From: a virus
Taxonomy: Duplodnaviria > Caudoviricetes
Direction: 5' to 3' (one strand)
Length of the DNA: 64,000 bases
Virus record (IMG/VR): IMGVR_UViG_3300034084_000080
Coordinates: 6,631-70,630 of that record
Shown piece after piece: positions 14,738 to 14,795 of this stretch. The notes beneath the pieces were generated by a model. It had not been told where the DNA came from and ran no database searches. It saw only the letters and a list, made by a program, of their open reading frames with translations. Position numbers and translations under genes: made by a program. Position 1 is the stretch's first letter, and each line of letters begins with the position of its first letter.

Positions 14738-14795
14738 AAACGTTTCGGGCTTATTTTCGCCCATCATCAGTAAGAGAGAATACTCTTAGACGTTT
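14738..14795 (-). ncRNA. Hammerhead ribozyme, type III, with an extra U after A9
   Basis: AAACGU-C^UAAGAG(UAUUCU)CUCUUA-CUGAUGA-U-GGGC(GAAAAUAA)GCCC-GAA-ACGUUU. Confidence 0.88.

What the first reader, a model, noticed from the sequence alone, without database searches (positions are those of the whole stretch)
14738..14795. Second hammerhead (type III, variant core) in the 5' leader of the early operon
Seen on (-): AAACGU/ACGUUU stem III, UAAGAG/CUCUUA stem I, GGGC/GCCC stem II, GUC triplet, and one extra U between A9 and stem II. It lies about 140 nt below a TACGTTTG promoter and abuts an operator copy and the ATG at 14708. Inferred: it removes the triphosphorylated 5' end of the first early transcript, which would change decay or sensing of that RNA.
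Basis: partly seen in the sequence, partly recalled or inferred. Interest (0 to 1): 0.78.

Follow-up and report, generated by a model that had tools for sequence, protein, structure and literature searches.

The report
Hammerhead ribozyme in phage mRNA leader
A complete self-cutting hammerhead RNA lies 30 bases in front of a small gene in the early region of an uncultured temperate sediment phage, where it probably trims the message; phages are already known to do this, so it is a sound but fairly ordinary new example.

Summary
On the minus strand, 14795..14738 reads as a complete type III hammerhead. All core nucleotides are present, stems I, II and III have 6, 4 and 6 pairs, the cleavage triplet is GUC (cut 14789/14788), and one U follows A9.

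Chance does not explain it. A strict descriptor found none in 100 shuffled windows. Rfam Hammerhead_3 gives 31.4 bits, below the 48.5 gathering score, and lists it only when a short stretch is searched.

The extra U is not exotic. With the same stem II, IMG/VR holds 47 loci with the U and 24 without. Published work on the CChMVd viroid hammerhead shows that an extra residue there is tolerated.

The leader reading gained support. A close relative (L144) keeps the TAnnTTTG block at 86% identity. It has 38 nt where this phage has 349 nt: leader, hammerhead, palindromic operator-like site and an orphan 50-aa ORF.

Related operons carry other self-cleavers, one pistol and two type I hammerheads. 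A type I hammerhead lies 3 kb downstream in this window.

No RNA data exist, so cleavage, the transcription start and any effect on decay remain inferred.

This scan has reported similar phage hammerheads on other DNA. Verdict: new member of a known kind, modest interest.

The parts
14738..14795 (-). Type III hammerhead ribozyme. Stem III 14795-14790/14743-14738; cleavage after C17 (14789|14788); stem I 14788-14783/14776-14771 with loop 1 UAUUCU; core CUGAUGA 14770-14764; inserted U 14763; stem II 14762-14759/14750-14747 with loop 2 GAAAAUAA; GAA 14746-14744.
   Evidence: Direct reading; RF00008 31.4 bits; descriptor scan with shuffles; own covariance model and covariation.
14796..14926 (-). 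Putative 5' leader between the inferred start (about 14926) and the ribozyme. It would be released as a fragment of about 138 nt with a 2',3'-cyclic phosphate end.
   Evidence: No significant structure (z = -0.11); no Rfam match; absent from relative L144. The start site is inferred, not shown.
14907..14955 (-). Conserved non-coding block holding the TAnnTTTG-type box TACGTTTG (14940-14933); candidate promoter and leader start.
   Evidence: 86% identical over 49 nt to L144:3-51, upstream of the orthologous gene; unique in the window. The promoter function is inferred.
14717..14733 (.). Copy of the palindrome TATACGA-N3-TCRTATA (operator-like), 4 nt after the ribozyme and 8 nt before the ATG.
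   Evidence: About 16 copies in the window against 12.5 chance matches at 3 mismatches (51 found); all good copies are intergenic. Four sit next to a TAnnTTTG box (P = 0.0024).
14556..14708 (-). Orphan 50-aa ORF, the first ORF after the ribozyme.
   Evidence: ORF list and translation; no Pfam or PHROG match; no homolog among 5.8 billion proteins; absent from L144.
13908..14537 (-). Conserved 209-aa Cys/His-rich gene of unknown function, the second gene after the ribozyme. It served as the anchor for finding relatives.
   Evidence: 60 homologs; 78% nt identity to L144.
15076..15612 (+). GIY-YIG homing endonuclease on the opposite strand. It interrupts the minus-strand gene block just upstream of the promoter-like region.
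   Evidence: phrog_314 at 1.5e-13; Pfam GIY-YIG at 8.3e-11.
11673..11722 (-). Companion type I hammerhead in the same minus-strand block, 3 kb downstream.

Best explanation
The site encodes a cis-acting type III hammerhead ribozyme in the minus-strand RNA of the early-type small-gene region of a temperate phage. Once transcribed, it cuts itself after C17, between 14789 and 14788. The upstream piece ends in a 2',3'-cyclic phosphate. The downstream mRNA starts with a 5'-OH and carries the ribozyme body (the stem I and stem II hairpins), then the palindrome, then the ATG 80 nt from the cut. The most likely transcript starts at a conserved TAnnTTTG-type promoter about 138 nt upstream, so the ribozyme removes the primary triphosphorylated leader. 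The downstream genes (orphan 50-aa ORF, 209-aa gene and onward) then get one defined, structured 5' end whatever the upstream RNA was. Shown: the sequence anatomy, its improbability by chance, the commonness of the extra-U form, compensatory changes in similar type III elements, and the indel relative to L144. Inferred: transcription, cleavage in vivo, the start site, and any effect on stability or translation.
For: All defining hammerhead nucleotides and three helices are present. RF00008 scores 31.4 bits, E 1.2e-5. Strict descriptor hits in 100 shuffled windows: 0. Loops fit the UNmYN and RNnA tertiary-contact motifs of natural hammerheads (PMC2632901). An extra residue between A9 and G10.1 is tolerated in CChMVd, and U there raised the rate 3-4 fold (PMC1636495, PMC3705267). 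IMG/VR holds 47 loci with CUGAUGA-U-GGGC...GCCC-GAAAC, nearly all complete type I hammerheads, against 24 without the U. Type III elements with the same stem I in L063, L098 and L141 differ in stems II and III by compensatory changes: 8 pairs changed on both sides, 96.9% of cells paired, 0 of 500 shuffles as high. L063 and L098 carry an extra A at the same core position, and the ATG follows 24-31 nt after the ribozyme in L063, L098 and L141, as here. L144 keeps the promoter-like block and the downstream gene but lacks the 349-nt segment with the ribozyme. A second hammerhead lies in the same strand block. Operons holding the 209-aa homolog carry a pistol ribozyme (L074, 73.3 bits) and type I hammerheads (L145, L148). 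Published precedent: phage hammerheads flank genes and process long transcripts, and the halovirus early transcript's 5' end maps within 3 nt of a hammerhead cut (PMC3088659).
Against: The Rfam score is below the gathering threshold, and the site is invisible to default filters. The covariation set was chosen by a pattern that fixed stem I and then by ability to fold, so it is biased, and those elements may not be true homologs. No hammerhead was found at the syntenic place in any relative. That covers five complete genomes with 45% TerL identity and about 12 loci with the 209-aa homolog. The nearest-neighbour MFE prefers a fold without stem III by 1.1 kcal/mol. TAnnTTTG is not enriched in the window, and the host is unknown.
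Confidence: 0.8

Rival explanations
1. The ribozyme is real but works as an intercistronic processing site, not as a leader trimmer. Transcription from the head of the minus-strand block (about 19.6-21.4 kb) reads through the antisense of the GIY-YIG gene, and the hammerhead detaches the downstream genes from that long antisense-bearing RNA.
For: The minus-strand gene block runs from about 19560 down to 8393. No convincing terminator lies between 15663 and 15612. In L063 the similar type III element lies between two co-directional ORFs. Perreault et al. describe exactly this use (PMC3088659).
Against: The promoter-like block 14955-14907 is conserved in L144 directly upstream of the orthologous gene. 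That argues for a local start. Both sources of RNA could coexist.
Confidence: 0.3
2. The hammerhead, with or without the orphan ORF, is a mobile or sporadically gained module with little benefit to the phage. It would persist because self-cleavage in a leader is nearly neutral.
For: Presence and absence differ between this phage and L144. The ribozyme types and positions differ among related operons. The 50-aa ORF is an orphan. A homing endonuclease lies 280 nt away.
Against: The core and all three stems are intact with no decay. The placement 24-31 nt before a start codon recurs in unrelated contigs, which suggests selection for position. No repeats or target-site marks bound the segment.
Confidence: 0.2
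3. It is a chance look-alike or a dead relic that does not cleave, for instance because the extra U or the competing stem I extension blocks the active fold.
For: The Rfam score is below gathering. The MFE is not the hammerhead fold. There is no conservation in syntenic relatives.
Against: Strict matches in 100 shuffles: 0. The extra-U form is commoner than the canonical one for this stem II in phages, and U at this site is active in the CChMVd ribozyme (PMC3705267). The loops fit the tertiary motif (PMC2632901).
Confidence: 0.07

Closest known systems
Hammerhead ribozymes of phages and prophages (Perreault et al. 2011, PMC3088659), including the halovirus 'HHphage' at the head of an early polycistronic transcript
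   Same: Canonical core; located in intergenic DNA just before genes; more than one ribozyme in a block of small, poorly conserved genes. The proposed role, processing phage transcripts, is also the same. In HHphage the mapped 5' end of the early transcript coincides with the cut.
   Different: Those sets are mostly type II, or type I. This one is type III, with the ribozyme body kept on the downstream mRNA. Here a close relative lacking the element defines it as an indel inside a conserved promoter-leader.
Type III hammerheads of viroids and satellite RNAs (Rfam RF00008), especially the CChMVd (+) hammerhead with an extra A10
   Same: Same topology and the same core; loop 1 fits UNmYN and loop 2 fits RNnA. 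One extra residue lies between A9 and G10.1, and a U there was active in CChMVd variants (PMC1636495, PMC2632901, PMC3705267).
   Different: This one is DNA-encoded in a phage mRNA leader, not part of a rolling-circle RNA replicon. It scores only 31.4 bits against the viroid-dominated Rfam model.
RiboJ-type synthetic insulators (an sTRSV type III hammerhead plus a hairpin placed in a 5' UTR); recalled from my own knowledge, not tested here
   Same: The order of parts is the same: promoter, leader, type III hammerhead, hairpin-forming palindrome, start codon. Cleavage would give a uniform 5' end independent of the upstream RNA.
   Different: This element is natural. The palindrome here is a genome-wide repeated DNA motif that more likely binds a protein. 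The insulating effect is a hypothesis only.

Membership tests
Hammerhead ribozyme (class) | Core nucleotides C3 U4 G5 A6 N7 G8 A9 and G12 A13 A14 | tested here: met
   CUGAUGA at 14770-14764 and GAA at 14746-14744.
Hammerhead ribozyme (class) | A15.1-U16.1 pair and H17 (not G) at the cleavage site | tested here: met
   A at 14743 pairs with U at 14790; C17 at 14789, giving the GUC triplet.
Hammerhead ribozyme (class) | Three helices that pair right up to the core (N1.1-N2.1, N10.1-N11.1), with an uninterrupted core | tested here: inconclusive
   U1.1-A2.1 and G10.1-C11.1 pair, and the stems have 6, 4 and 6 bp. One U (14763) is inserted between A9 and G10.1. This is a documented tolerated variant (PMC1636495, PMC3705267) and is common in phages.
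Hammerhead type III (Rfam RF00008) | Stems I and II closed by loops, stem III open | tested here: met
Hammerhead type III (Rfam RF00008) | Score at or above the curated gathering threshold (48.5 bits) | tested here: not met
   31.4 bits; not listed at gathering. The other environmental type III and type I hammerheads found here are also unlisted, so the threshold is conservative for phage forms.
Natural (extended) hammerheads | Loop 1 / loop 2 tertiary-contact motifs UNmYN and RNnA | tested here: met
   Loop 1 UAUUCU fits U-N3-Y-N, and loop 2 GAAAAUAA fits R-N6-A. This was compared at sequence level only, with the motifs defined in PMC2632901.
Hammerhead ribozyme (class) | Helices supported by compensatory changes in relatives | tested here: inconclusive
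   8 pairs changed on both sides in stems II and III among the window, L063, L098 and L141. The set was picked by a fixed stem I and by foldability, and no syntenic homolog exists.
Hammerhead ribozyme (class) | Site-specific self-cleavage giving 2',3'-cyclic phosphate and 5'-OH ends | not testable with these tools
   Needs an in vitro transcription and cleavage assay.
Phage multi-ribozyme gene blocks (Perreault et al. 2011) | Two or more self-cleaving ribozymes on one strand flanking short blocks of small genes in a phage or prophage | tested here: met
   Type III at 14795-14738 and type I at 11722-11673, both on the minus strand. An integrase at 62162-63430 marks a temperate phage. Related operons hold pistol and type I hammerheads.

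The most novel reading that the evidence does not exclude
The ribozyme, the palindrome hairpin and the start codon form a natural 5'-UTR insulator and end-remodelling device. It would swap the primary 5'-triphosphate leader for a 5'-OH, ribozyme-capped end. That would protect early, possibly anti-defence, messages from 5'-end-dependent decay or from host systems that act on phage RNA ends. The module would be gained and lost as a cassette inside otherwise conserved promoters.
Probability: 0.12. Interest if true: 0.6.

Novelty: new member of a known kind. Interest (0 to 1): 0.3.

Why it matters
The biological role of the many phage hammerheads is still open. This locus offers a clean natural comparison. 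Two close phages share the same promoter-like block and downstream gene, one with and one without the ribozyme-bearing leader. That pair could test directly what a 5'-UTR hammerhead does to mRNA level, stability and translation. It also shows that standard Rfam annotation misses such phage hammerheads, and that the 'extra U' core is a common natural form. Otherwise it adds one more example to a well-described class.

Tried and rejected
- Rfam at gathering on the whole window, and at E <= 10 on 601 nt, found no hammerhead. Only an 86-nt search lists it.
- The genome search with RF00008 missed the site in its own genome and found nothing in five relatives, so it is uninformative.
- INPHARED phages gave no DNA match for the locus.
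- Sequencing runs: no RNA holder is listed. Four sediment DNA runs hold identical low-depth contigs with no variants, so no natural variation could be used.
- The search for related loci with the 209-aa protein alone in viral contigs found none. With an alignment it found two loci in viral contigs and none in genome contigs. The promoter-block pattern found none in viral or genome contigs. The host therefore remains unknown.
- Whole-genome scans of five relatives at 45% TerL identity found no type III element and only one type I hammerhead.
- Covariance model R1, run over 741 kb and then with filters off over six further loci, found no syntenic homolog.
- TAnnTTTG is not enriched in the window, and the sigma-70 scan shows nothing convincing near the site.
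- The leader 14926-14796 has no significant fold.
- The overlapping small ORFs 14767-14988 and 14925-15053 translate to low-complexity junk and were rejected as genes.
- The 50-aa ORF has no family and no homolog.
- A phage RNA polymerase that might read the palindrome as a promoter was looked for among the large ORFs and not found.
- MAFFT alignment of six type III elements was not structure-consistent, so the model-based alignment A5 was used instead.

Full report
**Observation**

The minus strand from 14795 to 14738 reads AAACGUC|UAAGAG-UAUUCU-CUCUUA-CUGAUGA-U-GGGC-GAAAAUAA-GCCC-GAA-ACGUUU. This is a complete type III hammerhead:
- Stem III is 14795-14790 with 14743-14738, six pairs including A15.1-U16.1.
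- C17 is at 14789, so the cut falls between 14789 and 14788.
- Stem I is 14788-14783 with 14776-14771, closed by loop UAUUCU.
- The core CUGAUGA is 14770-14764.
- A single inserted U is at 14763.
- Stem II is GGGC/GCCC, closed by loop GAAAAUAA.
- GAA is 14746-14744.

**Is it more than chance?**

I wrote a descriptor covering the core, three helices, an optional one-base insertion after A9, and all three topologies. In the window it found this site, a type I hammerhead at 11722-11673 on the same strand, and one weak hit at 5907. In 100 Markov shuffles of the window it gave 0.05 loose hits and no hit of comparable quality.

CUGAUGA...GAAA alone occurs 8 times against 2 expected.

Rfam's Hammerhead_3 model aligns the site end to end at 31.4 bits, E 1.2e-5 for 86 nt against all families. 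Scaled to the window that is still below 0.01. The score is under the 48.5-bit gathering value. The match was also lost to the speed filters in the whole-window and 601-nt searches and in the genome search.

The hammerhead fold is within 1.1 kcal/mol of the MFE. That gap is not alarming, since (from general knowledge) energy models ignore the core's tertiary contacts.

**The 'variant core'**

An extra residue between A9 and G10.1 is documented in the CChMVd (+) hammerhead. There it causes only a moderate rate decrease (PMC1636495). Replacing that A with U raised the trans-cleavage rate 3-4 fold (PMC3705267, summarising De la Pena and Flores 2001).

In IMG/VR, the pattern CUGAUGA-U-GGGC...GCCC-GAAAC occurs in 47 contigs, where well under one is expected by chance. 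On inspection nearly all are complete type I hammerheads. The same pattern without the U occurs in 24 contigs. So the insertion is a common natural form in phages.

Loop 1 (UAUUCU) and loop 2 (GAAAAUAA) fit the UNmYN and RNnA motifs that mediate loop-loop docking in most natural hammerheads (PMC2632901).

**Relatives of the element**

I scanned viral and metagenome contigs for stem I plus the core, TAAGAG-N(4-10)-CTCTTACTGATGA. This returned 55 loci. Most are chance matches, but five contain complete type III hammerheads:
- L063 and L098, which are variants of each other and both carry an extra A after A9;
- L141;
- L109;
- a separate type III element in L126.

I built a covariance model from the window sequence. 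It aligns L098, L063 and L141 at 48.6, 45.7 and 34.3 bits. On that alignment 8 of the 10 pairs in stems II and III change on both sides. Overall 96.9% of cells pair, and no shuffle or slid control comes close.

Two caveats apply. Stem I was fixed by the search, and the set was kept because it folds. The result therefore shows that the architecture recurs, not strict homology.

In L063, L098 and L141 the next start codon lies 24-31 nt after the ribozyme, as here (30 nt).

**Context**

The window comes from a 70.6-kb IMG/VR provirus record found in sediment metagenomes. It encodes terminase, portal and an integrase.

The minus-strand block from about 19560 to 8393 holds small genes. Among them are an Rv2179c-like exoribonuclease, DUF6876, PcfK and PcfJ. 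The block is interrupted by a plus-strand GIY-YIG homing endonuclease at 15076-15612.

The ribozyme lies in the 367-nt gap between that gene and the ATG at 14708.

Directly after the ribozyme comes a copy (14733-14717) of a palindrome, TATACGA-N3-TCRTATA. It extends to ATTATACGA-N3-TCGTATAAT and has about 16 good copies in the window. All are intergenic, 2-26 nt before start codons, and one lies 13 nt before the tRNA. Four copies abut a TAnnTTTG box (P = 0.0024). I read it as a repressor site, possibly 'stoperator'-like. A promoter role cannot be excluded.

**Is the ribozyme in a 5' leader?**

TAnnTTTG is not enriched overall, so the box alone carries no weight. One relative is informative.

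L144 carries a 214-aa homolog that is 81% identical in protein and 78% in DNA to gene 13908-14537. L144:3-51 matches window minus-strand 14955-14907 at 86%; this block holds TACGTTTG and the following TTATGTGATAGGCGACACAG. L144:90 onward matches from 14557 onward. Between those two anchors L144 has 38 nt, including a degenerate palindrome copy. The window has 349 nt there: a 111-nt leader, the hammerhead, the palindrome and the orphan 50-aa ORF.

A non-coding block conserved at the same place upstream of the orthologous gene is what a promoter and transcript start would look like. The ribozyme lies downstream of it.

Read-through from upstream genes across the antisense of the endonuclease gene remains possible. 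No convincing terminator lies there.

**Distribution**

No type III homolog occurs at the syntenic place in any relative. I checked five complete genomes with 45% TerL identity and about a dozen loci with the 209-aa homolog.

Self-cleaving ribozymes nevertheless recur in these operons:
- a pistol ribozyme in L074 (73.3 bits);
- type I hammerheads in L145 and L148;
- a type I hammerhead in relative G003;
- the type I hammerhead 3 kb downstream in this window.

This patchy pattern, mixed in ribozyme class, matches published descriptions of phage ribozymes flanking small non-conserved ORFs (PMC3088659, PMC6155905).

**Mechanism**

The chemistry of the class is established: cleavage leaves a 2',3'-cyclic phosphate on the upstream piece and a 5'-OH on the downstream piece. 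Because the topology is type III, the ribozyme body stays on the downstream mRNA. That mRNA would start at 14788 with two hairpins, then the palindrome, then the ATG 80 nt from the cut.

If transcription starts near 14926, a leader of about 138 nt with the triphosphate end is discarded. Whether this changes decay, translation or recognition of the RNA is inference. The halovirus precedent shows that such cuts can define the in vivo 5' end of a phage early message (PMC3088659).

I put the ribozyme itself at about 0.8-0.85, the local-promoter leader model at about 0.55, and a stability or insulation role at about 0.4.

**Verdict**

This is a well-formed new member of a known kind. Earlier reports of this scan on other genomes reached the same reading for similar phage hammerheads, including the extra-U form. 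The useful new point is the natural with/without pair (window against L144), which would make the function of a 5'-UTR hammerhead testable.

Noticed in passing
window 683, 2991, 3360, 6416, 12265, 12727, 14717, 20891, 21384, 30518, 30830, 44351, 44593, 53023, 53205, 61671 (each 17 nt); also L144:754-771: A palindrome, ATTATACGA-N3-TCGTATAAT, has about 16 copies. All but 44593 are intergenic, 2-26 nt before start codons, and one lies 13 nt before the tRNA. Four abut a TAnnTTTG box (P = 0.0024). It is absent from the relatives at 45% TerL identity but present in the close relative L144. It may be a genome-wide repressor ('stoperator'-like) site or a promoter element.
   Followed up: partly
window 11673-11722 (-): A canonical type I hammerhead (GGUUAA-CUGAUGA-GGGU..ACCC-GAAA-CGC..GCG-UC|UUAACC) overlaps the end of ORF 11703-11975 and lies 13 nt before the ATG at 11659. 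Near-identical designs occur in IMG/VR (L030, L040, L046), there with an extra U.
   Followed up: partly
L074:4718-4783 (+); L145:42-93 (+); L148:3459-3510 (+); L087:1182-1231 (-): Operons that hold homologs of the 209-aa gene carry other self-cleaving ribozymes: one pistol (73.3 bits) and two type I hammerheads. One relative at 45% TerL identity has a type I hammerhead. Ribozyme class and position vary between related phages.
   Followed up: partly
window 15076-15612 (+), flanks 15031-15058 and 15613-15640: A GIY-YIG homing endonuclease gene sits on the opposite strand inside the minus-strand gene block. It is bracketed by a 28-nt imperfect inverted repeat (71%), with an 18-nt hairpin just before its start. 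A NUMOD4/HNH endonuclease lies at 8393-8932.
   Followed up: no
window 14556-14708 (-): The 50-aa ORF right after the ribozyme has no homolog among 5.8 billion clustered proteins and is missing from the close relative L144. It may be a recently gained or spurious gene.
   Followed up: yes
window 9159-9269 vs 13409-13519; 19452-19653 vs 20175-20394: Two pairs of duplicated segments (78-91% identity) lie in the minus-strand early block. The first pair is largely intergenic.
   Followed up: no
whole window; L063, L098, L109, L126, L141, L087, L145, L148: Rfam at gathering thresholds with default filters lists none of the complete phage hammerheads seen here. Standard annotation would therefore miss them.
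   Followed up: partly
L126:935-995 (-) and about 2923-2965 (-); L105: One metagenome contig holds a clean type III hammerhead, plus a second hammerhead-like element with the same stem I as the window's but an imperfect stem III.
   Followed up: no
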